Sequence record: PV805631.1 | Strand: one strand, 5' to 3' | DNA from: a phage | Length of the DNA stretch: 64,000 bases | Part shown: positions 1 to 9,038 of the stretch, in pieces | Layout: every line of letters starts with the position of its first letter | Numbering within the stretch: the stretch's first letter is position 1 | Translations under genes and position numbers: made by a program | The notes under the pieces: model-generated | The model's database searches: none | What the model was told of the DNA's origin: nothing | What the model saw: the letters and a program-made list of their open reading frames with translations, nothing else

Positions 1-88
1 TGACAGGGGCTACACCCTTACACGTTAACTACCCCCCCGGTATGTTGACTCATGGGTGTACTACCCTACCCCACCTTACACGTTACAC

Positions 89-108
89 GTTGCTCCGCAA
101 CTTATGGA
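89..108 (+). promoter_or_regulatory. Candidate virion-RNAP early promoter hairpin (copy 1): GTTGC-TCC-GCAAC followed by TTATGGA
   Basis: Perfect 5-bp stem with 3-nt loop; same GC-TCC-GC core and TTRTGG downstream box recur at 768 and 4761; lies upstream of the first early ORF. Confidence 0.5.
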
Positions 109-144
109 CATGTCGTCCTATCATCAACTATTGGAGCTATCATC

Positions 145-468
145 ATGACTACTACCGCTACTGTACGTATGACCGCAGGAACTCTGCTGGGTACTGTTAA
201 CTCTGCTGCCACTACTGTGGCAGATTCATTCGGTGCTGCTACTAAAGCAGTTGGTATGCTTAATTCTTACGTAGCTACTATGGCAAAGAAACAAGCCATT
301 CGTACTAAATTAGAAATGCATACTTTCGAAAACAAATTAGCTGAAGAAACAGCTATGAACGAGACTCTTCGTAAGAAAAGTATCGAAGAATTCTGCAAAG
401 ATCCAGAAAACGCTCGTATCTATAACGCAGAATATTCAAGAATAATTGACATCCTGTCTAAAGACTAA
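145..468 (+). CDS. Hypothetical early protein (107 aa)
   Basis: ORF 52..468 trimmed to the ATG at 145, which has a GGAG 8 nt upstream and sits downstream of the hairpin at 89-101. Confidence 0.5.
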   Translation: MTTTATVRMTAGTLLGTVNSAATTVADSFGAATKAVGMLNSYVATMAKKQAIRTKLEMHTFENKLAEETAMNETLRKKSIEEFCKDPENARIYNAEYSRIIDILSKD

Positions 469-471
469 ATC

Positions 472-498
472 AATAGGAGGCTCTTCGAGCCTCCTATT
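472..498 (+). promoter_or_regulatory. Perfect 12-bp hairpin (AATAGGAGGCTC / GAGCCTCCTATT, 3-nt loop) just after the stop codon; no U-tract
   Basis: Inverted repeat read directly; stem contains an AGGAGG; related sequence reused in the terminator at 2621-2657. Confidence 0.4.
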
Positions 499-506
499 AA
501 GGGCAT

Positions 507-521
507 TAGATAGATAGATAG
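507..521. repeat. Short (TAGA)n microsatellite
   Basis: TAGATAGATAGATAG read directly. Confidence 0.6.
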
Positions 522-557
522 TCAGTTCTGTATAAAAAGATAGGAGAGATACCTACT

Positions 558-704
558 ATGAGCAAACTAAAAAACGCATTCATGCTGATTGTCAGTGTCC
601 TTGCACTTGTTGTTATGGTTTCCGTATACATTGGAAAACCTCTGGTAAACACTGACTATGGTAATGGTCAGAAAGTAAAATCCATCCTGCTAACGGATAA
701 GTAA
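558..704 (+). CDS. Small hydrophobic protein (48 aa), below the ORF-track cutoff
   Basis: ATG with AGGAGAG upstream; one predicted transmembrane helix (AFMLIVSVLALVVMVSVYIG). Confidence 0.3.
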   Translation: MSKLKNAFMLIVSVLALVVMVSVYIGKPLVNTDYGNGQKVKSILLTDK

Positions 705-767
705 AATGTCCCTGAATCTAAATCACCGTAAGAATCTCAGGATATCTTACATACCCTAAAAGACAAC

Positions 768-787
768 GACGCTCCGCGTCTTATGGA
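768..787 (+). promoter_or_regulatory. Candidate virion-RNAP early promoter hairpin (copy 2): GACGC-TCC-GCGTC followed by TTATGGA
   Basis: Same architecture as copy 1; about 100 nt upstream of the ATG at 889. Confidence 0.5.
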
Positions 788-888
788 TGATGTAAATGCA
801 TCCACTAATCATTGAAATTTTATCCTTTTGTTTGGGTGTTCTCACCGACGAGTTCACCCGTAAATCACATAAATCTGGAGAGTACAAA

Positions 889-1272
889 ATGTCTATTCAA
901 AAATTCACTTTCGGTCAATCTAACGCTGCTGCTACTTCTACTGCTAAAGCGGATAAACCTAAAGCTCAGTTCTGGCTGAACATTGGTTATGTAGCTAATG
1001 AAGGTTCCGATGATGAGAAATTCATCTCGCTGCCTACTGGTATTCCACTGGATACTCAGGAACCGCTGCCTACTAACAGCAGCAATGCTGACTTCCGTGC
1101 TATGCGTTGTGCACAGAACGATTTGTTGGAACAGTTAATTGAATATGCTCAGAACCTGAAACCAGGTGAAGAAGGTATCATTAACCTGCAAGTTCAACTT
1201 CGTCGTGTGAAAGCAGAGGCTGCTGACATCCCAGCAGACGAGAATAAATATGCTCGTAAACTGACTTTCTAA
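889..1272 (+). CDS. Hypothetical early protein (127 aa)
   Basis: ORF 796..1272 trimmed to the ATG at 889 with GGAGAG upstream; followed by a terminator. Confidence 0.5.
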
Positions 1273-1281
1273 TCAACAACT

Positions 1282-1310
1282 GGACTCCCTTCGGGGAGTC
1301 CTTTTATTTT
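1282..1310 (+). terminator. Intrinsic terminator (GGACTCCC-TTCG-GGGAGTCC + TTTTATTTT)
   Basis: 8-bp GC-rich stem, TTCG loop, U-tract. Confidence 0.7.
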
Positions 1311-1375
1311 AACTATGCGATAAACTAAGTAGAGTGTAATCCTACTTTTAGACGAAGAGAGACTAAGAGGTAAGT

Positions 1376-1870
1376 ATGAAGAAACCATATGGCTATTGGC
1401 AACAATCTGCTCACAATTTAGCCAAGATTCATGACCAATCTGATGCTCAGAGTAATGGGTACATATATGTAAAACATGATGGTAAAACCGTACTTTTACA
1501 TGTGTGGATTTGGGAGCAAATCAACGGTGCTATACCGGAAGGGTATGAGATAGACCATGAAAATGGTATCCGTTGGGACTGTAGGTTAAGCAACCTACGA
1601 TGCGTACCAAAGCTAATTAACCTAAGAAACTCAGCAAAACAAGCTAACAATACATCTGGTACTACTGGTGTAAGTATCATTACAGATAGGGGCAGAGAAT
1701 ATTGGATTGCTACATGGAGTGAGCCAGTTACAGGCAAGAAGAGAATGAAGCGCTTCAGTGTACAGAAGAATGGCTATGATACTGCTAAGCAGCTAGCCAT
1801 CAACTATCGTACAGAAGTTCTAAAAGATTTAATTAAAAATCATGACTATACAGAACGTCACGGTATGTGA
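1376..1870 (+). CDS. HNH homing endonuclease with AP2-like DNA-binding domain
   Basis: HNH_3-like motif (EIDHENG...NLR) plus AP2-like segment (NTSGTTGV...W); clear paralog of the ORF at 33131. Confidence 0.75.
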   Translation: MKKPYGYWQQSAHNLAKIHDQSDAQSNGYIYVKHDGKTVLLHVWIWEQINGAIPEGYEIDHENGIRWDCRLSNLRCVPKLINLRNSAKQANNTSGTTGVSIITDRGREYWIATWSEPVTGKKRMKRFSVQKNGYDTAKQLAINYRTEVLKDLIKNHDYTERHGM

Positions 1871-1947
1871 ATAGGGCTTTTCGACGAAGAGTCACTAAAA
1901 CTTAAACGTAAACAGAAGCAGATAACTTAGAGTAAGGAGTAATCAAG

Positions 1948-2133
1948 ATGCGTGTACTATGTAACCGTTATAATCCAGCAAAGTTAATCGACTTTATGGA
2001 ACCCATTGGTAGTCGTATGACTTATGCTGCTCGTTGGCAGGTATCCATAGCTGATAGTAGAGAACGTACTTATGACTACTTCTTTGTAGCTAAGCCTACT
2101 CGTAAACAAATCCGTAAACTTCACAAAGGATAA
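1948..2133 (+). CDS. Hypothetical protein (61 aa)
   Basis: ORF with AAGGAG upstream. Confidence 0.4.
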   Translation: MRVLCNRYNPAKLIDFMEPIGSRMTYAARWQVSIADSRERTYDYFFVAKPTRKQIRKLHKG

Positions 2134-2137
2134 TGCT

Positions 2138-2290
2138 ATGAAGCTACTGGCAGAGATTCTATGTATTTTATTAATGATACTGCTGGTAGCTGCATTTCCG
2201 TGGCTATTAGCCGTAGGTATAGTTATTGGTATGTTCCTAGCCAGAGCGAGTGATGCTCGTGGTAGGGATGAGCCAGGTGGAGATGTGTAA
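2138..2290 (+). CDS. Small membrane protein (50 aa), below the ORF-track cutoff
   Basis: ATG 8 nt after AAGGA; hydrophobic core LLMILLVAAFPWLLAVGIVIGMFLA. Confidence 0.3.
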   Translation: MKLLAEILCILLMILLVAAFPWLLAVGIVIGMFLARASDARGRDEPGGDV

Positions 2291-2322
2291 ACACTGCCGG
2301 AAGGGTATGTACGGAGGAACCA

Positions 2323-2496
2323 GTGATATTCACTAACATTGAAGATGCCATTGAAGAATGTATCTTCCGTAGATATCACACTGGAGTACAGAAACGACAC
2401 TATGGTGTTGTGCAACTCAATGGCTATCAAATGGCTGTAAGAATTGTACGTAACAATAAACCTTTTAACTTTATGTGGAGTACTAAACATGCGTAA
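2323..2496 (+). CDS. Hypothetical small protein (57 aa, GTG start)
   Basis: GGAGG 5 nt upstream of the GTG; open frame to TAA. Confidence 0.25.
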   Translation: MIFTNIEDAIEECIFRRYHTGVQKRHYGVVQLNGYQMAVRIVRNNKPFNFMWSTKHA

Positions 2497-2620
2497 GTCA
2501 TTAATCATGGGAACCAAAGCTGACGTACAGAAGATGAAAGAACGTCTGGCTGCTAAGAAACAGGCATCTGAACCAGTACGTAAGATTGTTACCTTCAATC
2601 ATCCGTGCATCAAATAGTAA

Positions 2621-2657
2621 GGAGTCCTCCAATAGGAGGCTCCTATTTTTTATTTTT
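2621..2657 (+). terminator. Intrinsic terminator (bulged stem containing AATAGGAGGCTCC, then TATTTTTTATTTTT)
   Basis: Stem-loop plus long U-tract. Confidence 0.65.
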
Positions 2658-2694
2658 GAATAGTTAGACATGTATTTAAATAGGAGAAAGAACC

Positions 2695-3003
2695 TTGAAT
2701 GAAATAGTATGCATACTTCCACACTTAGCTAAAGTAGCTGATAGGAATATACGGATACATTTACCCTTCCCATTAAGTAATCCATTTACTCGTAATGAAA
2801 GAACCACAGTAGAGGATATAGAGGTAGCTTATGAGGCTTACCTTCGCAATCGTCTTATTAGTGGTGACAAATTAATTACAGCAGAGATGGAAAGGATTGC
2901 TGGTTTTGTCACAGATAGTACAAAGAAACCTGTTGGTTTAATTGGTACTGAATCTGATGTTAACGTTATTCGTAAAATATTAATGGAGGCTCTAAGCCAA
3001 TGA
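2695..3003 (+). CDS. Hypothetical protein (102 aa, TTG start per ORF track)
   Basis: ORF track; AGGAGA upstream; start codon uncertain. Confidence 0.4.
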   Translation: MNEIVCILPHLAKVADRNIRIHLPFPLSNPFTRNERTTVEDIEVAYEAYLRNRLISGDKLITAEMERIAGFVTDSTKKPVGLIGTESDVNVIRKILMEALSQ

Positions 3004-3221
3004 TGTACATGAGCAATTATGGTATTTGCCCAGTCTGTAAGAAAGGACGTGGAGTTGCTAATCATAAGAAGTGTAGTCGTATATTGCAGAAACAACGGAA
3101 CCAGGAAGAATGGTCTAAGGTGCTGGAAAATCAGCACAAAGAAGAGAATCAACAGATGGCTGTTAAGGCATCTACTCAACGTATTCGCCGTATTAACTAT
3201 ATACAAGGATACCAAAAGTGA
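3000..3221 (+). CDS. Hypothetical Cys-containing basic protein (73 aa)
   Basis: ORF track; CPVCKK...C arrangement suggests a zinc ribbon. Confidence 0.4.
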   Translation: MMYMSNYGICPVCKKGRGVANHKKCSRILQKQRNQEEWSKVLENQHKEENQQMAVKASTQRIRRINYIQGYQK

Positions 3222-3475
3222 TTATTACATTCCCTGTAACTAAATCATTTAACTATATGGGACAAACTATTGAAGTCCCATTATGGGTTAAATATGTAGC
3301 CTTATTACCTCGTCCTCAGAAGAGTAAGAATGCCTCACTAATTGGATTTAGTAGAAAGCCTAAGCTAACTGAAAACTGTATTTGGAAGTCCAGCGGCAGA
3401 CAAGAAGAAATTGGTTTTTGTGACTATGTACCTCAACCGAATACAGTATATCTAACCCTGGAGAAAGTAGAGTGA
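3218..3475 (+). CDS. Hypothetical protein (85 aa)
   Basis: ORF track; stop/start overlap with neighbours. Confidence 0.45.
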   Translation: MIITFPVTKSFNYMGQTIEVPLWVKYVALLPRPQKSKNASLIGFSRKPKLTENCIWKSSGRQEEIGFCDYVPQPNTVYLTLEKVE

Positions 3476-3786
3476 ATAATATTGTAGTAGTACATGATAA
3501 TACATTTACTGACGTCGATAAGATGATGCGTAATATTGATTATGTATCTCAGACTAGTAAAGCATTTAATGAAAAGTTCATTATTTACTGTGAACCAGAA
3601 TCACCGCTGGTTCCCGTATTAAAGGAAGCTGGTCTACCCTTCTCTACAGAGAACTTCCCAGAGGAACCAGAGTATATGATCACATTCATATATGACTTAC
3701 ACGATGGCTCTCCTGCTAGTGAACTGGCTATGAACCAGTGGAGTAGTAAACGTCCTGTATATGCTTTCCAGGTACTTAAACCATGA
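3472..3786 (+). CDS. Hypothetical protein (104 aa)
   Basis: ORF track; stop/start overlaps. Confidence 0.5.
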   Translation: MNNIVVVHDNTFTDVDKMMRNIDYVSQTSKAFNEKFIIYCEPESPLVPVLKEAGLPFSTENFPEEPEYMITFIYDLHDGSPASELAMNQWSSKRPVYAFQVLKP

Positions 3787-4025
3787 TCTATGAAGAATAT
3801 TATGTATTCAAAAAAGGAAATGATTTTATAGCTATGCCCAATGATTACATGGATTGGCATACAACTCCTGTATTAAAAGAAGCATTTTCCGTACCTAACC
3901 TGGAAGAGGTTAATAAAGTAATGAACGGAGTAATGCTAACAAGAGGTATGGCTTACAAAATAGACGCATTAGAAGGAGCTTCTGTATGCAAAGTAACTAC
4001 ATCCATTGAGGTACTTAAACCATGA
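3783..4025 (+). CDS. Hypothetical protein (80 aa)
   Basis: ORF track; stop/start overlaps. Confidence 0.45.
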   Translation: MIYEEYYVFKKGNDFIAMPNDYMDWHTTPVLKEAFSVPNLEEVNKVMNGVMLTRGMAYKIDALEGASVCKVTTSIEVLKP

Positions 4026-4402
4026 AAGCTATCTCATTAGGTGATAACACCAATACTCTAATGGGTGAAACTGCTCGCTCAATTACTATTGTTAATAAAC
4101 ATCATGGTAAATCCGGTGAGTATATTGGGCGTGGCTCACCGTTAGGCAATCCATTCATCATTGGTAAACATGGAACCAGAGAGCAAGTAATTGCTAAGTA
4201 TAGAGTCTGGCTGCAAGAACAGATTGATAAAGGTAATCCAGCTGTACTGGATGAACTCAATCGTCTTGGTAATAAAGCCATTGACGAGAAAGGGCTGGCC
4301 TTACAGTGCTTCTGCTATCCCAAACCATGTCATGGTGAGGTTATTAAAGAGAAGCTCGTTCGGGCTATGTATAACTATTTTGTAGAAAATCCAAAAGGGT
4401 AA
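4022..4402 (+). CDS. DUF4326-like conserved phage protein
   Basis: YIGRGSPLGNPF motif and C-terminal C-x-C...C-H cluster recalled as typical of DUF4326; function unknown. Confidence 0.45.
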   Translation: MKAISLGDNTNTLMGETARSITIVNKHHGKSGEYIGRGSPLGNPFIIGKHGTREQVIAKYRVWLQEQIDKGNPAVLDELNRLGNKAIDEKGLALQCFCYPKPCHGEVIKEKLVRAMYNYFVENPKG

Positions 4403-4405
4403 CTA

Positions 4406-4756
4406 ATGAAAGAAATCTTAGTATTCACTACCAATGTACTTGGGCAGCATACCAATGCTGCTGCCAAGTTAGCTTATAAGAAGCACGGTGCACGTTGGGG
4501 TATGGCCTACGGTCATTATGGTAATAGCTTTGCCATTCCAGTAAGGGATGGCAATGGTAACCGAATTAAAGAGGGTGCTATCTATGGCTTCGTTGAAGGC
4601 TTTATTTCCTATGCATCTACTAATCCACAGTGGGATTTCAAAGTAATGGGAGATGACTTTCTGGACCCATACCTGTTCAATAATGTTACTGGCAATGTAC
4701 TGTTACCAGAAGCATGGCGTAAATACTTAGGTGATGCTTACAACTACTGGTCATAA
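4406..4756 (+). CDS. Hypothetical protein (116 aa), possibly Rossmann-like
   Basis: ORF track; N-terminal beta-strand/Gly motif (ILVFTTNVLGQH). Confidence 0.45.
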   Translation: MKEILVFTTNVLGQHTNAAAKLAYKKHGARWGMAYGHYGNSFAIPVRDGNGNRIKEGAIYGFVEGFISYASTNPQWDFKVMGDDFLDPYLFNNVTGNVLLPEAWRKYLGDAYNYWS

Positions 4757-4760
4757 GAAG

Positions 4761-4780
4761 GGTGCTCCGCACCTTGTGGT
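4761..4780 (+). promoter_or_regulatory. Candidate virion-RNAP early promoter hairpin (copy 3): GGTGC-TCC-GCACC followed by TTGTGG
   Basis: Same architecture as copies 1 and 2; immediately upstream of the RNAP subunit operon. Confidence 0.5.
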
Positions 4781-4804
4781 AATTAACTAATTGGAGAATA
4801 TGCG

Positions 4805-5623
4805 ATGTACTCATCTATCGAACATCAGAAGCAACTCGAAGTACTATTCAATAAAAATCAGCTCCTGCCAAGGATGCGAAAAGAGTTCGAGGACTCCAAA
4901 GAAATTGACTTTAAGGCATTCGCTGCCTATTTGGAAATTGATTATAAACTGCTCATTGATGCAATGGTGCAGATTGCCCTACATAAACGTGCTGACATCC
5001 AGACTATGATTGGCTCTCTCATGAGTCACTCAGATGATGCTCAGTACATCGCTGACTGTCTGTATAAGATGGCAGAGAATGACTGCTTCAACTATGACCC
5101 TACCATCGACAAGTTCGGTGTTATCTATGAGATTAGTGAAGATGTTCAGATGGAACTGGAAGCATTCCAGTATCCATTACCTATCGTAAGTGCTCCTAAT
5201 CCTGTCAGAACTAACAGGGATACTGGTTACTACCAGACTAAGGGAAGCATTATCCTCAAGAAGAACCATCATGAGATGGATGTCTGCCTTGACCATATCA
5301 ACCGTATGAACAATCAACGTCTCTGTATTAACTGGGATGTTGCTAACTATGTAAAAGACTCTCGTCCTAATATGGATAAACCCAAAGAGGGTGAAACCCG
5401 TCAGGACTATGAGAAACGTGTTAAAGCCTTTGAGAAGTACAGTCGTACCGCTAAGGAAGTAATGGAGTTAGTGACTCAGGAAGGTAATAACTTCTCACTA
5501 GCGCATAAGTACGATAAGAGAGGGAGAACCTATGCCTGTGGATACCATATTAACTATGCTGGGACGTCCTACAACAAGGCAGTGGTTGAATTTGCAGACA
5601 AAGAACTAGTAAACGAGGATTAG
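4805..5623 (+). CDS. Phage RNA polymerase II small subunit (N4 RNAP1-like)
   Basis: About 270 aa gene directly upstream of the catalytic subunit; assigned by synteny with the N4 two-subunit enzyme, no motif confirmed. Confidence 0.5.
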   Translation: MYSSIEHQKQLEVLFNKNQLLPRMRKEFEDSKEIDFKAFAAYLEIDYKLLIDAMVQIALHKRADIQTMIGSLMSHSDDAQYIADCLYKMAENDCFNYDPTIDKFGVIYEISEDVQMELEAFQYPLPIVSAPNPVRTNRDTGYYQTKGSIILKKNHHEMDVCLDHINRMNNQRLCINWDVANYVKDSRPNMDKPKEGETRQDYEKRVKAFEKYSRTAKEVMELVTQEGNNFSLAHKYDKRGRTYACGYHINYAGTSYNKAVVEFADKELVNED

Positions 5624-5624
5624 T

Positions 5625-6206
5625 ATGAAGACATGTTCAGTATGTAAGAAGAACTTGCCTCTGGACATGTTCAATAAACAGTCCACAGGTAAGCAAGGTG
5701 TAAGGGCAGACTGTAAAGACTGCCTTAAACGATTTATCCGTTCAAAACACGGAGTCATTAATCAGATGTACTCCGGTTGTATCAGTAGAACTAAGAAGAA
5801 GGGGTTTACTCCTGTATCTTTCACAAAGGAGGAACTAGAGAAATGGGTGTATTCAAGTAAAGAATTTCACGAATTATATGATGAATGGGTATCGAAAGAT
5901 TACCCAACTAACCTAAAGCCGAGCTTAGATCGGTTGGATGATTATAAAGGTTATTCACTGGACAACATTCGTATTGTTACAGCGAATACCAACGTAAAAA
6001 GGTACTACTCTGATGCAATCAATGGTATCAACACCAAATCAGCTAAGCCTGTTGAGCAGTATTCACTAGATGGTAAATACATTAAGACGTTCCATTCACT
6101 TAGTGCTGCTGCACGAAGTGTTAAGGGTATACCCTCTAATATTAATCAAGTAATTAACGGTACATATGCGCAAGCATATGGCTATAAGTGGAAACTAGGA
6201 GCCTAA
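5625..6206 (+). CDS. Diverged HNH-like homing endonuclease candidate between the RNAP subunit genes
   Basis: N-terminal CxxC...CxxC; DRLDD...NIRIVTANTN aligns with the HNH_3 motif of the other HNH ORFs but has Arg where they have the first His. Confidence 0.45.
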   Translation: MKTCSVCKKNLPLDMFNKQSTGKQGVRADCKDCLKRFIRSKHGVINQMYSGCISRTKKKGFTPVSFTKEELEKWVYSSKEFHELYDEWVSKDYPTNLKPSLDRLDDYKGYSLDNIRIVTANTNVKRYYSDAINGINTKSAKPVEQYSLDGKYIKTFHSLSAAARSVKGIPSNINQVINGTYAQAYGYKWKLGA

Positions 6207-6207
6207 G

Positions 6208-7425
6208 ATGCAGATTTTCACAGCTAAAGAATATTTAAAAATTGATATTGCCAATTCTTACGGGCTGGATAAGAAGACATGGGATGAGCGTATTAGCTGG
6301 TTCGATGAGAATGAAGCTAACCTGCTTAATCTGGTAGATGAAGCTGAAGAATCCGCACTGTTCTATGCTGGCGTAAACGCATGGAAAGACATGAAAGCCG
6401 GTAAACCTATCGGTTATGCCGTAGCTCTGGATGCTACATCATCTGGTTTGCAGTTACTGGCTTGCCTGACTGGTGACCGTTCTGCTGCTGAACTATGTAA
6501 CGTAGTTAACTACATGGGTGAGAACGGTAAGCCATTACGTCGTGATGCTTATACAGTTATCTATCACAAGATGCTGGACATCCTTGGTGAATCATCCCGT
6601 ATTAAACGTAGTGATACTAAGCAGGCAGTTATGACTGCGTTCTATGGTTCAGAAGCTAAGCCTAAAGAAGTATTCGGTGAAGGTATTCGTCTCAAGACTT
6701 TTGAGAATGTAATGGAAACAGTTGCTAGTGGACCTTGGGCACTGAACAAGTTCTTACTGCAATGTGGTAACCCGGATGCTAACCGTTACGTATGGGTACT
6801 GCCTGACAACTTCCATGCTGTCATTAAGGTCATGGTTCCAGAAGTACAGACCGTTAACTTCTTAGGTAAGCCATTCGACATCACCCGTATGGTACAGGGT
6901 ACTGAAGATAAGACTCGTATGCTCTCTGCTAACATCACTCACTCTATTGATGGGATGGTGGTACGTGAAATGCTGCGTCGTTGTAACTTCAACATGAACC
7001 AGGTGAACTATGTTAAGTCCCTCTGTGAAGGAACCAGTGAGTATATGCTGGGTACTAGCGGGAACTACGACATGGTTAGTCAACTGTGGCATAACTATGA
7101 GAAATCAGGATTCCTGTCTACCCGTATCTTTGATTATCTGGATTCTGACTCAATTAAACTGGTTGATACAGATGTAATCATGGCTATGATTAATACTATG
7201 CCTAAGAAACCATTCCCTGTAATGACTGTACATGACTGCTTCCGTTGTCATCCTAACTACGGTAATGATCTGCGTCGTCAGTACAATCAGATTCTGTCTG
7301 ACATTGCTAAGAGTGATCTACTGGGCTTCATCCTGTCTCAGGTACTGGGACAAGAGTTCTCTGCTGGTAAGCTGGATGACAGCCTCTGGCAGGACATCCT
7401 TGAAACAGACTATGCGTTAAGTTAA
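6208..7425 (+). CDS. Phage RNA polymerase II catalytic subunit (N4 RNAP2-like, T7-family)
   Basis: T7-RNAP-like motif A (LDATSSGLQLLA), motif B (RSDTKQAVMTAFYGS) and motif C (VHDCF). Confidence 0.8.
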   Translation: MQIFTAKEYLKIDIANSYGLDKKTWDERISWFDENEANLLNLVDEAEESALFYAGVNAWKDMKAGKPIGYAVALDATSSGLQLLACLTGDRSAAELCNVVNYMGENGKPLRRDAYTVIYHKMLDILGESSRIKRSDTKQAVMTAFYGSEAKPKEVFGEGIRLKTFENVMETVASGPWALNKFLLQCGNPDANRYVWVLPDNFHAVIKVMVPEVQTVNFLGKPFDITRMVQGTEDKTRMLSANITHSIDGMVVREMLRRCNFNMNQVNYVKSLCEGTSEYMLGTSGNYDMVSQLWHNYEKSGFLSTRIFDYLDSDSIKLVDTDVIMAMINTMPKKPFPVMTVHDCFRCHPNYGNDLRRQYNQILSDIAKSDLLGFILSQVLGQEFSAGKLDDSLWQDILETDYALS

Positions 7426-7432
7426 TAAACTG

Positions 7433-7467
7433 GCCTCATACCTTCGGGTATGGGGCTTTTATTTTTT
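7433..7467 (+). terminator. Intrinsic terminator (10-bp stem, TTCG loop, TTTTATTTTTT)
   Basis: Read directly. Confidence 0.7.
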
Positions 7468-7484
7468 GCTTGGAGGTAGTCAAC

Positions 7485-7667
7485 ATGACAGACATCTATG
7501 ATGTTATTACTAAAACTGTACTGATAGTTTTATCTGCTATTGTGGTATTCACTATAGCCAATGTTCATAAATCCAAGTTTTCCTATTGCTACTATGGAGC
7601 ATACTCTGCCGGTTGTTTTGTATTAGCCGGTTGGATAGCTTACTGGATTTACCGCATCAACAACTAG
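7485..7667 (+). CDS. Small membrane protein (60 aa)
   Basis: ATG with GGAGG 7 nt upstream; two hydrophobic segments; terminators on both sides. Confidence 0.4.
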   Translation: MTDIYDVITKTVLIVLSAIVVFTIANVHKSKFSYCYYGAYSAGCFVLAGWIAYWIYRINN

Positions 7668-7696
7668 CCACCCTCATGGGTGGCTTTCTTTTTTAT
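7666..7696 (+). terminator. Intrinsic terminator (AGCCACCC-TCAT-GGGTGGCT + TTCTTTTTT)
   Basis: Read directly. Confidence 0.7.
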
Positions 7697-7741
7697 CAGC
7701 CTTCATAATAATTAGGCATATTTACTCAAGAGGATACATGT

Positions 7742-8563
7742 ATGCCAACCTTAAAGATTGCGTTTAATAAAACAACCAACGTTGCTATCGTGCTTGATTC
7801 AGATGGTAGTGTTCCAGATGGTTTTGCGGAAGTAGGTACTTTTGTACATCCTGATGCCACTTACCCTGATAGCTTAGTTATCTATCACGGTGTACGTGAC
7901 CTGTTGTATAAACGTTCTGCTGAAGACCCTGCTGAAGAAGGTTTCTGGCCTAACAGCATCGTGGATATGCAGTCGATCACTATTACCCCACAACTGACTA
8001 TTGCTACCGAACTGCTTAATGAAGTCTCTGCCATCGAAGGTGAAGATATTAACTGGCATATTGATGTAGCAGGTGGTAAAGCACCTTTTACCTATAAGTG
8101 GCAATACAAAGCAGATACTGATGATGCAGTATTCACTGATATTGATTCTGATGACAACGAATCTGCTGCTACTGCAACATTGACCATTAGTGGTGTAACC
8201 GCTGCTTCTGCTGGTACTTATAAAGTGATTGTTACTGATGCTAATGGAACCACGGTGGAAGATACCTCACTGCTGACTGTAAGCTACCCCGAAGCAAGCT
8301 CACTGGTAGCTACCCCAGATTCACTGGAACTGTCTGTTGCTGACGATACTACTGATGGCAAGACTGTAACCATCACTGCTTTGCCTGTCGGAGCGTCTGT
8401 TGGTACTTTATCTATCAAGACTGCTCCGGATTCTGCCCGTGCTACAGCTACCATTTCTGGTAACGTACTAACAGTTAAACCAGTGGCAGAAGGTGAAGCT
8501 ACTTCTGTAGTAGTTACCAACGGTACTGTCGATGTAACCATCGCTATTACTGTTGCAGAGTAA
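7742..8563 (+). CDS. Ig-like domain protein, possible capsid decoration protein (N4 gp17-like position)
   Basis: Ig/Big_2-like repeats (e.g. TLTISGVTAASAGTYKVIVTD); sits right after RNAP2. Confidence 0.45.
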   Translation: MPTLKIAFNKTTNVAIVLDSDGSVPDGFAEVGTFVHPDATYPDSLVIYHGVRDLLYKRSAEDPAEEGFWPNSIVDMQSITITPQLTIATELLNEVSAIEGEDINWHIDVAGGKAPFTYKWQYKADTDDAVFTDIDSDDNESAATATLTISGVTAASAGTYKVIVTDANGTTVEDTSLLTVSYPEASSLVATPDSLELSVADDTTDGKTVTITALPVGASVGTLSIKTAPDSARATATISGNVLTVKPVAEGEATSVVVTNGTVDVTIAITVAE

Positions 8564-8613
8564 GGGTATCCCTTATTTGGGGTTATAAACCCTGAAAGGA
8601 ATCCCTCTAGTTT

Positions 8614-8642
8614 GACCTCCCTATTGAAGGGAGGTCTTTTTT
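8614..8642 (+). terminator. Intrinsic terminator (GACCTCCC ... GGGAGGTC + TTTTTT)
   Basis: Read directly. Confidence 0.7.
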
Positions 8643-8667
8643 GACTTAAACAAACCGGAGCCAGGAA

Positions 8668-8856
8668 ATGTATAAAGAGATTGCATTCTTCTCGTTCTTA
8701 TTAGGAGGGTTAATTGGTGCAGGAATTGTAGCTATTTCTAATACCTACTTTGGTTCTACTCCAAATTCTGTAACACAAACCCTCAAGCATGAATGTGAAT
8801 TGAATATCCCTCGTAACCAAAACTGTGTAATGCAGTTCGTACCGGAGAAGAAATGA
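8668..8856 (+). CDS. Small membrane protein (62 aa)
   Basis: ORF track; N-terminal hydrophobic helix. Confidence 0.35.
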   Translation: MYKEIAFFSFLLGGLIGAGIVAISNTYFGSTPNSVTQTLKHECELNIPRNQNCVMQFVPEKK

Positions 8857-9038
8857 AACTAACCCAGTCCCAAGCAATTTTCCTTCGCATGGTTCAAGGT
8901 GGTTCTGCCACCAGCAACCGTAATAACAAAACCGCACAGTCTCTTAAGAAGCTGGGCTTAGTACAGTTCAATGCTGGTCTTGGGTGGTCATTAACCCCTA
9001 CCGGTGTACTTCAACTCAACGAATTAAAAGGTAACTAA
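8853..9038 (+). CDS. Hypothetical small protein (61 aa)
   Basis: ORF track; stop/start overlap. Confidence 0.35.
   Translation: MKLTQSQAIFLRMVQGGSATSNRNNKTAQSLKKLGLVQFNAGLGWSLTPTGVLQLNELKGN

What the first reader, a model, noticed from the sequence alone, without database searches (positions are those of the whole stretch)
4022..4756. DUF4326-like protein plus adjacent Rossmann-like ORF in the early region
The 126-aa ORF carries YIGRGSPLGNPF and a C-x-C...C-H cluster that I recall as typical of DUF4326, a phage-associated family of unknown function. The next ORF has a nucleotide-binding-like start (ILVFTTNVLGQH). They sit just upstream of promoter copy 3. A two-gene early module with enzyme-like folds is a candidate nucleotide- or NAD-targeting host-takeover or anti-defence function.
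Basis: partly seen in the sequence, partly recalled or inferred. Interest (0 to 1): 0.5.

Follow-up and report, generated by a model that had tools for sequence, protein, structure and literature searches.

The report
Phage DUF4326 plus degenerate macrodomain pair
Two neighbouring immediate-early genes of the N4-like coliphage G7C encode an intact DUF4326 phosphatase-like domain and a crippled ADP-ribose-binding "macro" domain; this pairing is already known as a fused module, so the find is a fairly ordinary member of a predicted but untested anti-defence toolkit.

Summary
The window is Escherichia phage vB_EcoP_G7C (N4-like). Both ORFs are real: 4022-4402 is gp12 and 4406-4756 is gp14.

- **gp12** is a bona fide DUF4326 protein (Pfam E 5e-22). 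It keeps all invariant residues, and its model is closest to the RapZ C-terminal domain.
- **gp14** is not a Rossmann nucleotide binder. It belongs to the N4 gp14 / A1S_2505 family, and its model is closest to the DarG and TARG1 macrodomains.
- **The G7C version of gp14 is degenerate.** The Gly-rich loop is mutated, the TARG1 K84 equivalent is Arg, and the RIGCGLAG loop is deleted. The gene is still under purifying selection.
- **Functional link.** DUF4326 and this macrodomain are fused in the same order, usually with a SLOG domain, in 71 of 119 retrieved relatives from mobile elements.
- **Limits of the link.** In phages the pairing is loose. Some relatives have gp14 without gp12, and DUF4326 occurs in about 1400 phage genomes.
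- **Expression.** Both genes lie just upstream of the third N4-type hairpin promoter, so they are immediate-early.

The best reading is a split ADP-ribose-processing counter-defence module, with gp14 as a non-catalytic partner in G7C. The DUF4326-Macro-SLOG association is already published, and no experiment supports a function. Interest is modest.

The parts
4022..4402 (+). G7C gp12: intact DUF4326 domain protein (126 aa), with a RapZ-C-like rhodanese/phosphatase-type fold. The candidate active-site loop C96-F-C98-Y-P-K-P-C103-H104 sits between strand 91-96 and helix 104-122.
4406..4756 (+). G7C gp14: 116-aa degenerate macrodomain of the N4 gp14 / A1S_2505 family. It lacks the conserved GSN and HGAGAA glycines, has Arg in place of the family Lys (TARG1 K84 equivalent), and has an 8-residue deletion of the RIGCGLAG loop.
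2695..3003 (+). G7C gp9: second, degenerate DUF4326 paralogue (102 aa, TTG start) in the same early transcription unit. It keeps the NPF motif but lacks GR, R53, W63 and the Cys/His cluster. It is a possible third member of the module.
   Evidence: phrog_464 E 3.7e-15. It scores 1.3e-43 against a locally built DUF4326 HMM that included its own orthologues. Alignment is. dN/dS is 0.07-0.13.
4761..4773 (+). Third N4-type virion-RNA-polymerase promoter hairpin (GGTGC-TCC-GCACC; template-strand loop GGA), between gp14 and gp15. It marks the 3' boundary of the transcription unit holding gp12 and gp14.
   Evidence: The homologous element AGCTGC-TCC-GCAGCT lies directly after N4 gp14.
768..780 (+). 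Second hairpin promoter copy (GACGC-TCC-GCGTC). It is the nearest upstream early promoter from which gp9, gp12 and gp14 would be transcribed. The first copy is at 89-101.
   Evidence: N4 carries GAAGC-TCC-GCTTC at the corresponding place. I recognise that sequence from memory as N4 promoter P2.

Best explanation
The two ORFs are the G7C orthologues of phage N4 gp12 and gp14. They form a split version of a DUF4326-macrodomain(-SLOG) module that exists as a single polypeptide in many mobile elements.

Shown here:
- gp12 is an intact DUF4326 domain with a RapZ-C-like phosphatase/rhodanese-type fold.
- gp14 is a minimal macrodomain of the TARG1/DarG/Poa1p-like kind.
- Both are transcribed in the first minutes of infection from N4-type hairpin promoters.
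- The two domains are fused in this same order in dozens of protein clusters.

Inferred: the module processes ADP-ribose adducts or ADP-ribose-derived small molecules made by host NAD-dependent immunity (DarTG-type DNA ADP-ribosylation, or TIR/SIR2-type signalling). The macrodomain would recognise or remove ADP-ribose. DUF4326 would act on a ribose-linked terminal phosphate or on the nucleic-acid end left behind.

Specific to G7C and about 40 related coliphage genomes: the macrodomain has lost the Gly-rich loop, the catalytic Lys equivalent and the second phosphate-binding loop, yet stays under purifying selection. There, gp12 is the only plausible enzyme. gp14 most likely acts non-catalytically, as a binding partner, adaptor or decoy.
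For: - Identity and context: 100% match to G7C gp12 and gp14.
- Functional link: P0219 is a DUF4326-macro-SLOG fusion. 71 of 119 of its relatives carry DUF4326 followed by this macrodomain in one chain, and 48 are macro-SLOG.
- Fusion context: they sit in mobile elements next to SSB, helicase, ParA/ParB and an ART-PolyVal polyvalent protein.
- Literature: DUF4326 is fused to Macro, SLOG and NADAR and is predicted to process ribose-linked terminal phosphates of ADPr. SLOG-DUF4326 fusions are related to the anti-Avs protein ORF83. DarG-like phage macrodomains (AdfM) are proven anti-DarTG2 factors.
- Early expression: hairpin promoters.
- Degeneracy of G7C gp14: it deviates at G8, S9, G16, G18, T46 and K47, each conserved in 132-148 of 149 diverse family representatives. 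It also lacks the GxGxxG loop present in 135 of 149.
- Selection: dN/dS is 0.09-0.20.
Against: - No experiment on any DUF4326 protein or on N4 gp12/gp14 was found.
- Phage synteny is loose. Only 17 of 27 viral loci with a gp14 relative have DUF4326 within 6 kb. U1G and several metagenomic relatives have an intact gp14 but no gp12. Small ORFs are often inserted between the two genes.
- DUF4326 occurs in about 1400 phage records against 292-449 for the gp14 family, often next to nrd genes. Most DUF4326 proteins therefore work without this macrodomain.
- A degenerate macrodomain weakens a two-enzyme pathway model for G7C itself.
- There are no PADLOC matches.
Confidence: 0.5

Rival explanations
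1. The two genes are functionally independent. Their adjacency is a by-product of the tightly packed, mosaic early operon of N4-like phages, in which small genes are shuffled freely.
For: All genes in this block abut or overlap. Relatives insert one or two unrelated small ORFs between gp12 and gp14. gp14 occurs without gp12 in U1G and in several IMG/VR contigs. DUF4326 is three to five times more widespread in phages than the gp14 family. gp14 alleles are exchanged independently of gp12.
Against: 71 of 119 relatives of P0219 fuse the two domains in the same order in one polypeptide. That is hard to explain without a shared function. All seven sampled genomes with the degenerate gp14 keep an intact gp12 zero or one ORF upstream.
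Confidence: 0.2
2. gp12 works in nucleotide or DNA metabolism rather than in ADP-ribose processing. It could be a DNA-end or nucleotide phosphatase linked to replication or dNTP supply, like T4 NrdA.1. gp14 would be incidental.
For: tblastn hits of gp12 fall on T4-like 'NrdA.1' genes and next to nrdA, nrdB and nrdG in T4-like and jumbo phages. PHROG hits are to 'DNA repair protein' and 'NrdA-like' families. Iyer et al. 2021 note DUF4326 fusions to DNA replication and R-M components. The fusion proteins sit beside SSB, helicase and PolA.
Against: G7C gp12 is not near any nrd or replication gene. It lies in the immediate-early block. The 'NrdA-like' and 'DNA repair' names are transferred labels, not tested functions. 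The recurrent fusion partners are ADPr-related domains: Macro, SLOG and NADAR.
Confidence: 0.15
3. The degenerate gp14 is itself the effector. It would be a pseudo-macrodomain that stoichiometrically binds and blocks a host ADP-ribosyltransferase or ADPr-sensing immune protein, as an antitoxin or decoy mimic. gp12 would be unrelated or auxiliary.
For: Catalytic and ligand-binding motifs are lost while purifying selection stays strong. The degenerate allele is the commoner one in E. coli Gamaleyaviruses: about 40 of 66 Escherichia phage records. There is precedent for non-enzymatic anti-DarT factors that bind DarT directly, such as ICP1 Gp145/AdfB.
Against: No target is known and no interaction was tested. 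The surface that changed is the ADPr cleft, which could equally mean simple loss of function that is tolerated because gp12 or the host compensates.
Confidence: 0.12
4. The pair clears by-products of RNA repair (ADP-ribose 1''-phosphate or 1''-2'' cyclic phosphate), as Poa1p-type macrodomains do after Tpt1/KptA action.
Against: G7C has no annotated RNA ligase, Tpt1/KptA, polynucleotide kinase or 2H phosphoesterase. The G7C macrodomain lacks its phosphate-binding loop.
Confidence: 0.03

Closest known systems
Phage N4 gp12 and gp14 (and 'N4 gp14-like protein' of Schitoviridae)
   Same: They are direct orthologues, in the same order and strand in the early region, ending at the hairpin promoter in front of gp15.
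   Different: N4 gp14 (128 aa) keeps GSN, HGAGAA, PTK and VGCGLAG. G7C gp14 (116 aa) has TTN, HTNAAA and PVR, and an 8-residue deletion. N4 also has gp13 between the two genes.
DUF4326-macro(A1S_2505)-SLOG(YAcAr) fusion proteins of bacterial mobile elements (e.g. P0219, P0320, P0328, P0331)
   Same: They have the same two domain families in the same N-to-C order. DUF4326 invariant residues are shared.
   Different: They are a single polypeptide with an intact macrodomain and an extra C-terminal SLOG domain. G7C has separate genes, a degenerate macrodomain, and no SLOG gene detected in neighbours or annotation.
TARG1/OARD1 and DarG macrodomains (ADP-ribosyl hydrolases acting on Glu-ADPr and on thymidine-ADPr in DNA)
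   Different: gp14 is about 35 residues shorter. Sequence similarity is detectable only by profile-profile or fold comparison. The G7C copy lacks the Lys and the loop carrying the D125 equivalent.
AdfM, phage anti-DarT factor macrodomain (PhiKZ gp104, T4 Tk.4)
   Same: It is a stand-alone phage macrodomain of the DarG-like kind, deployed against an ADP-ribosylating defence.
   Different: It is a different sequence family: hhalign of the gp14 family against T4 Tk.4 gives probability 0.9%, and Foldseek to an Acinetobacter phage Tk.4 gives E 0.04. AdfM has the catalytic N and K. The G7C gp14 activity is untested and probably absent.
RapZ C-terminal domain (E. coli RNase adaptor protein)
   Different: Identity is 11-13%. 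RapZ-C is a sugar-phosphate/RNA-binding module with no equivalent of the CxCxPxxCH cluster. A shared function is not implied.
T4 NrdA.1 and other stand-alone phage DUF4326 proteins
   Same: They are the same Pfam family, present as small stand-alone phage proteins.
   Different: They are encoded next to ribonucleotide reductase genes, not in an immediate-early block, and have no adjacent gp14-type macrodomain.

Membership tests
Pfam DUF4326 (PF14216) | Score above the curated gathering threshold | tested here: met
   78.8 bits against a cut-off of 25, E 5.1e-22, profile positions 4-82 of 82.
Pfam DUF4326 (PF14216) | Conserved IGR, GNPF and CxCxPxxCHG motifs | tested here: met
   All 13 invariant columns of a 30-sequence alignment with distant fusion-protein domains are present in gp12.
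Pfam DUF4326 (PF14216) | RapZ-C-like rhodanese/phosphatase-type fold, with the conserved Cys loop between a central strand and a helix | tested here: met
Pfam DUF4326 (PF14216) | Phosphatase-like activity on ribose-linked phosphates (predicted in the literature) | not testable with these tools
   This is only a prediction. No experimental paper was found.
NCBIfam NF049995, A1S_2505 family / N4 gp14-like | Score above the curated cut-off | tested here: met
   83.4 bits against a cut-off of 45, E 1.2e-23. phrog_2072 E 4.9e-37.
NCBIfam NF049995, A1S_2505 family / N4 gp14-like | Family hallmark motifs FGSN, HGAGAA, AIPTK and RIGCGLAG | tested here: not met
   G7C has FTTN, HTNAAA and AIPVR, and an 8-residue gap. 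These positions are conserved in 132-148 of 149 representatives.
Macrodomain, TARG1/DarG-like ADP-ribosyl hydrolases | Macro fold | tested here: met
Macrodomain, TARG1/DarG-like ADP-ribosyl hydrolases | Detectable sequence homology to macrodomain families | tested here: inconclusive
   There is no Pfam Macro hit for gp14 or for 28 + 149 relatives. HMM against PDB gives E of about 1.2, or nothing. hhalign to TARG1 gives probability 81% and 69%, E 1.3e-5 and 4.3e-5.
Macrodomain, TARG1/DarG-like ADP-ribosyl hydrolases | Catalytic Lys (TARG1 K84 / DarG K80) | tested here: not met
   The aligned residue in G7C gp14 is R47. The family consensus is K, in 132 of 149 representatives.
Macrodomain, TARG1/DarG-like ADP-ribosyl hydrolases | Gly-rich loop 1 and phosphate-binding loop 2 (TARG1 G41-A-G43 and R119-IGCGLD125) | tested here: not met
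   Loop 1 is T16-N17-A18 in G7C. Loop 2 is deleted.
Macrodomain, TARG1/DarG-like ADP-ribosyl hydrolases | ADP-ribose binding or hydrolysis | not testable with these tools
   This needs biochemistry.
AdfM (anti-DarT factor, macrodomain) | Homology to T4 Tk.4 / PhiKZ gp104 | tested here: not met
   hhalign of the family against T4 Tk.4 gives probability 0.9%. Foldseek to phage 133 Tk.4 gives E 0.04.
AdfM (anti-DarT factor, macrodomain) | Protection against DarTG2 | not testable with these tools
   This needs plaque assays.
DUF4326-Macro-SLOG module | DUF4326 directly upstream of the A1S_2505-type macrodomain, in the same orientation | tested here: met
   The two genes have a 3-nt spacer on the same strand. 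The order matches the fusions.
DUF4326-Macro-SLOG module | SLOG (YAcAr/DprA-like) component | tested here: not met
   None of the five neighbouring ORFs scanned with Pfam has a SLOG hit. No SLOG gene is annotated in the parts of the G7C record examined, positions 1-61000.

The most novel reading that the evidence does not exclude
The G7C-type gp14 is a selected pseudo-macrodomain. Having lost ADP-ribose chemistry, it would act as a stoichiometric decoy or inhibitor of a host ADP-ribosyltransferase or ADPr-sensing immune protein, or as an obligate non-catalytic subunit that retargets the DUF4326 enzyme gp12. Together with the degenerate DUF4326 paralogue gp9, this would make the N4-like early region a small set of 'dead-enzyme' counter-defence proteins.
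Probability: 0.12. Interest if true: 0.6.

Novelty: new member of a known kind. Interest (0 to 1): 0.3.

Why it matters
DUF4326 is one of the most widespread phage domains with no tested function, present in about 1400 phage genomes here. N4-like phages offer a clean genetic system for it: one intact DUF4326 (gp12), one degenerate paralogue (gp9), and natural intact and degenerate alleles of its macrodomain partner in otherwise near-identical phages. Comparing these alleles on hosts that carry ADP-ribosylation or NAD-based defences could give the first function for DUF4326. It could also show whether pseudo-macrodomains have a role of their own. As a sequence observation, however, it mostly re-finds an association already published by the Aravind group, and annotations already present in GenBank.

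Tried and rejected
- **Rossmann nucleotide binder for gp14:** rejected by fold search and by the lack of a GxGxxG motif.
- **Direct sequence matches to solved structures:** none significant for either protein, or for the family profiles.
- **Pfam on gp14 and 177 relatives:** no Macro hit. There were only spurious 5-FTHF cyclo-ligase matches at E of about 0.004.
- **Same family as T4 Tk.4/AdfM:** not supported.
- **Defence-system component:** no PADLOC hits.
- **RNA elements:** no Rfam hit anywhere in the window.
- **RefSeq label 'DNA repair protein' for gp12:** this traces to a partial match to an 852-position PHROG profile (E 5e-9). I do not regard it as evidence of function.
- **'ADP-ribosylglycohydrolase' (Mimir124 and others):** this label may fit intact family members but probably not the G7C-type protein it is attached to.
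- **Burroughs & Aravind 2023 (PMC10034599):** the paper is not held, so statements about it rest on my memory of the abstract.
- **Opposite-strand ORFs** (4102-4281, 4375-4467, 4686-4814): short, and they overlap the conserved + strand genes. I did not search them for homologues and regard them as unlikely genes.
Full report
**What is there.**
The window is Escherichia phage vB_EcoP_G7C, an N4-like podovirus (Schitoviridae, Gamaleyavirus). The region 3400-5000 is 100% identical to HQ259105 / NC_015933, and window position equals record position minus 460. In the record they are gp12 and gp14, named for their similarity to phage N4 gp12 and gp14. Both are real genes. Against orthologues in related phages, dN/dS is 0.08-0.17 for gp12 and 0.09-0.20 for gp14.

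**gp12.**
- The recall of DUF4326 is correct. Pfam PF14216 scores E 5.1e-22, 78.8 bits against a gathering score of 25. phrog_464 scores E 1.7e-38.
- I aligned gp12 with DUF4326 domains cut from distant fusion proteins (27-43% identity). It keeps every invariant column: G36, R37, G42, N43, P44, R53, W63, G91, C96, C98, P100, C103 and H104.
- An AlphaFold2 model (pLDDT 85.8) places the C96-x-C98-x4-C103-H104 loop between a central beta strand (91-96) and a long helix (104-122). That is the position of the active-site loop in Cys-phosphatase/rhodanese folds.
[quoted passage not shown] The paper is not held in the library, and only its citation could be confirmed.

**gp14.**
- It has no Pfam hit. 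It belongs to NCBIfam NF049995, 'A1S_2505 family phage non-structural protein' (E 1.2e-23, above cut-off), and to phrog_2072.
- The family is large. A profile search of 1.84 billion representatives returned 4822 proteins at E of 0.001 or better. tblastn finds the family in 292-449 phage records, mostly N4-like phages of many hosts, where it is often labelled 'N4 gp14-like'.
- Profile-profile alignment to TARG1 (E 1.3e-5 and 4.3e-5; probability 81% and 69%) pairs three family motifs with TARG1. HGAGAA matches R-M-G41-A-G43-I-A. AIPTK matches L-I-T83-K84. TRIGCGLAG matches P-R-I-G-C-G-L-D125.
It is not a Rossmann motif.

**The G7C copy of gp14 is degenerate.**
- The family consensus reads FVFGSN-AG-HGAGAA ... 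SFAIPTKD ... VTRIGCGLAG.
- G7C gp14 reads LVFTTN-LG-HTNAAA ... SFAIPVRD ... VMG, followed by an 8-residue gap.
- In 149 diverse representatives the deviating positions are conserved as follows: G8 in 145, S9 in 148, G16 in 137, G18 in 147, T46 in 146 and K47 in 132. A GxGxxG loop is present in 135.
- K47 aligns with the catalytic K84 of TARG1. By the structure-based literature it also corresponds to K80 of DarG.
- N4 gp14 and many Gamaleyavirus relatives keep all motifs. The short degenerate form is found in about 40 phage records at 60% identity or more, out of 66 Escherichia phage records with a family member.
- KKP 3715 is an intermediate form. It keeps the TK pair but has already lost the GSN and HGAGAA glycines, so only the Lys position is still intact.
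- Phages with nearly identical gp9 and gp12 (PhAPEC5/7-like; dS 0.16-0.44) carry the intact macrodomain, which is only 50% identical. The locus is therefore mosaic.
- Because the degenerate allele is under purifying selection, it is not a decaying pseudogene. It most likely has a non-catalytic role.

**Are the two genes linked?**
- Synteny alone is weak evidence. Of 27 IMG/VR loci with a gp14 relative, 17 have DUF4326 upstream on the same strand within 6 kb and 10 have none.
- U1G and several contigs have an intact gp14 without gp12.
- N4, Bp4, HK2 and Mimir124 have one or two small ORFs between the two genes.
- DUF4326 occurs in about 1400 phage records, often as 'NrdA.1' next to nrd genes.
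- The strong evidence is domain fusion. Among the 150 best family representatives, the co-occurring Pfam domains are SLOG (YAcAr 9, DprA-like 3), NADAR (3) and DUF4326 (1).
- That one DUF4326 case, P0219, is DUF4326-macro-SLOG. A search with it returned 119 relatives. Of these, 71 carry DUF4326 followed by this macrodomain in one chain, and 48 are macro-SLOG.
- Two genomic contexts examined are mobile-element-like. They contain SSB, a helicase, PolA, ParA/ParB and a 2707-aa ART-PolyVal polyvalent protein.
- The gene order in G7C (DUF4326, then macro) is the order in the fusions.
- All seven sampled genomes with a degenerate gp14 keep an intact gp12 immediately, or one ORF, upstream.

**Expression context.**
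- Three + strand hairpins with a 5-bp GC-rich stem and a TCC loop (GGA on the template strand) lie at 89-101, 768-780 and 4761-4773. They share flanks A(C/A)G ... CTT(A/G)TGG.
- N4 has GAAGC-TCC-GCTTC-TTTTGGATG at the corresponding upstream place. I recognise that sequence as N4 virion-RNAP promoter P2 (own knowledge).
- N4 also has AGCTGC-TCC-GCAGCT directly after gp14 and before gp15.
- So gp9, gp12 and gp14 are immediate-early genes read by the injected virion RNA polymerase. The third promoter then drives the RNAPII genes gp15 and gp16.

**How it most likely works.**
- **Shown:** the two domain identities, their fusion elsewhere, immediate-early placement, the intactness of gp12 and the degeneracy of gp14.
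- **From the literature:**
[quoted passage not shown] - They had earlier suggested that it bridges NAD-utilising systems with DNA modification.
  - A SLOG/LOG-like anti-Avs protein, ORF83, has amoeba-virus homologues fused to DUF4326.
  - DarG-like phage macrodomains (AdfM: PhiKZ gp104, T4 Tk.4) protect against DarTG2 by removing ADP-ribose from DNA.
- **Inferred:**
  - gp12 and gp14 are the split form of an ADP-ribose-processing counter-defence module deployed at the start of infection.
  - In phages with an intact gp14, the macrodomain would remove or recognise ADP-ribose, and DUF4326 would act on a ribose-linked phosphate or the residual nucleic-acid end.
  - In G7C, gp12 is the only plausible catalyst, and gp14 acts as a binding partner, adaptor or decoy.
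- I put about 0.5 on this overall. The domain identities are near certain. The functional link is about 0.6. The anti-defence ADPr chemistry is about 0.45. The catalytic death of G7C gp14 is about 0.7.

**Rivals.**
1. Independent genes packed together by chance in a mosaic operon (0.2). The fusions argue against this.
2. gp12 in nucleotide metabolism or DNA-end metabolism, like T4 NrdA.1 (0.15). This is supported by nrd adjacency in other phages, but not by the G7C context.
3. gp14 as a stand-alone pseudo-enzyme inhibitor of a host ADP-ribosyltransferase or sensor (0.12). This is the most novel reading.
4. Clearance of RNA-repair by-products (0.03). G7C lacks the RNA-repair genes this would need.

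**Comparison with the known, and novelty.**
- Membership in DUF4326 is met on score, motifs and fold.
- Membership in the A1S_2505 / N4 gp14-like family is met on score, but the family's hallmark motifs are not met.
- The macro fold is met. The catalytic features of TARG1/DarG-type hydrolases were tested and are not met.
- gp14 is not in the same sequence family as AdfM.
- The DUF4326-Macro-SLOG association and the macrodomain nature of gp14-like proteins are already in the literature and in GenBank annotations: 'macro domain Poa1p family', 'ADP-ribosylglycohydrolase' and 'O-acetyl-ADP-ribose deacetylase 1'.
- As far as I could find, three points are new:
  - N4-like gp12 and gp14 are a split form of that fusion.
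  - The G7C-clade gp14 is a selected, motif-less macrodomain.
  - gp9 is a second, degenerate DUF4326 paralogue.
- That makes the finding a new member of a known kind, of modest interest (0.3). Its practical value is as a tractable system for giving DUF4326 its first tested function.

Noticed in passing
window 2695-3003 (+): G7C gp9 is a second DUF4326-like paralogue (phrog_464 E 3.7e-15). It keeps the NPF motif but has lost GR, R53, W63 and the whole Cys/His cluster. It is under purifying selection (dN/dS 0.07-0.13). At least one DUF4326-like ORF, gp9-type wherever only one is found, is present in every closely related (Enquatrovirinae-like) locus sampled, including those that lack gp12.
   Followed up: partly
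window 5625-6206 (+), between 4805-5623 and 6208-7425: An HNH/NUMOD1 homing-endonuclease-like ORF sits exactly between the two RNAPII subunit genes gp15 and gp16. Relatives carry a different endonuclease (Mimir124, HK2) or only a ~53-aa ORF (Bp4, U1G) at that junction, so this is a variable insertion hotspot.
   Followed up: partly
window 89-101, 768-780, 4761-4773 (+): There are three copies of an N4-type virion-RNAP promoter hairpin: a 5-bp stem, a TCC loop (GGA on the template strand), and conserved flanks. N4 has matching elements at the homologous places (L014 558-570 and 4547-4561).
   Followed up: yes
window 1-9000: Sigma-70-like promoter matches are depleted (8 found against 23.3 +/- 4.5 expected). 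Terminator-like hairpins are enriched (19 against 5.1 expected). This fits a region transcribed by phage polymerases.
   Followed up: no
L012 and L013 (PhAPEC5/7-like) against window 4406-4756: The gp14 locus is mosaic. Phages whose gp9 and gp12 are nearly identical to G7C's carry the intact 126-128-aa macrodomain allele, which is only about 50% identical. This implies allele replacement by recombination.
   Followed up: partly
L002 3184-3369 (Mimir124); similar ORFs in HK2 (L037 3322-3504) and U1G (L036 3322-3504): A 60-aa Cys-rich (CxC...CxxC, zinc-ribbon-like) ORF is inserted between gp12 and gp14 in several Gamaleyaviruses but is absent from G7C.
   Followed up: no
L032 1-2004 and L031 (contexts of fusion proteins P0331 and P0328): The DUF4326-macro-SLOG fusion genes lie in plasmid- or ICE-like regions with SSB, a helicase, PolA, ParA/ParB and a 2707-aa ART-PolyVal polyvalent protein. 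This is reminiscent of anti-defence 'leading regions'.
   Followed up: partly
protein P0149: A protein 83% identical to gp12 is labelled Enterococcus faecium on a 2.76-Mb contig. This is probably contamination or mis-binning of an N4-like coliphage sequence.
   Followed up: no
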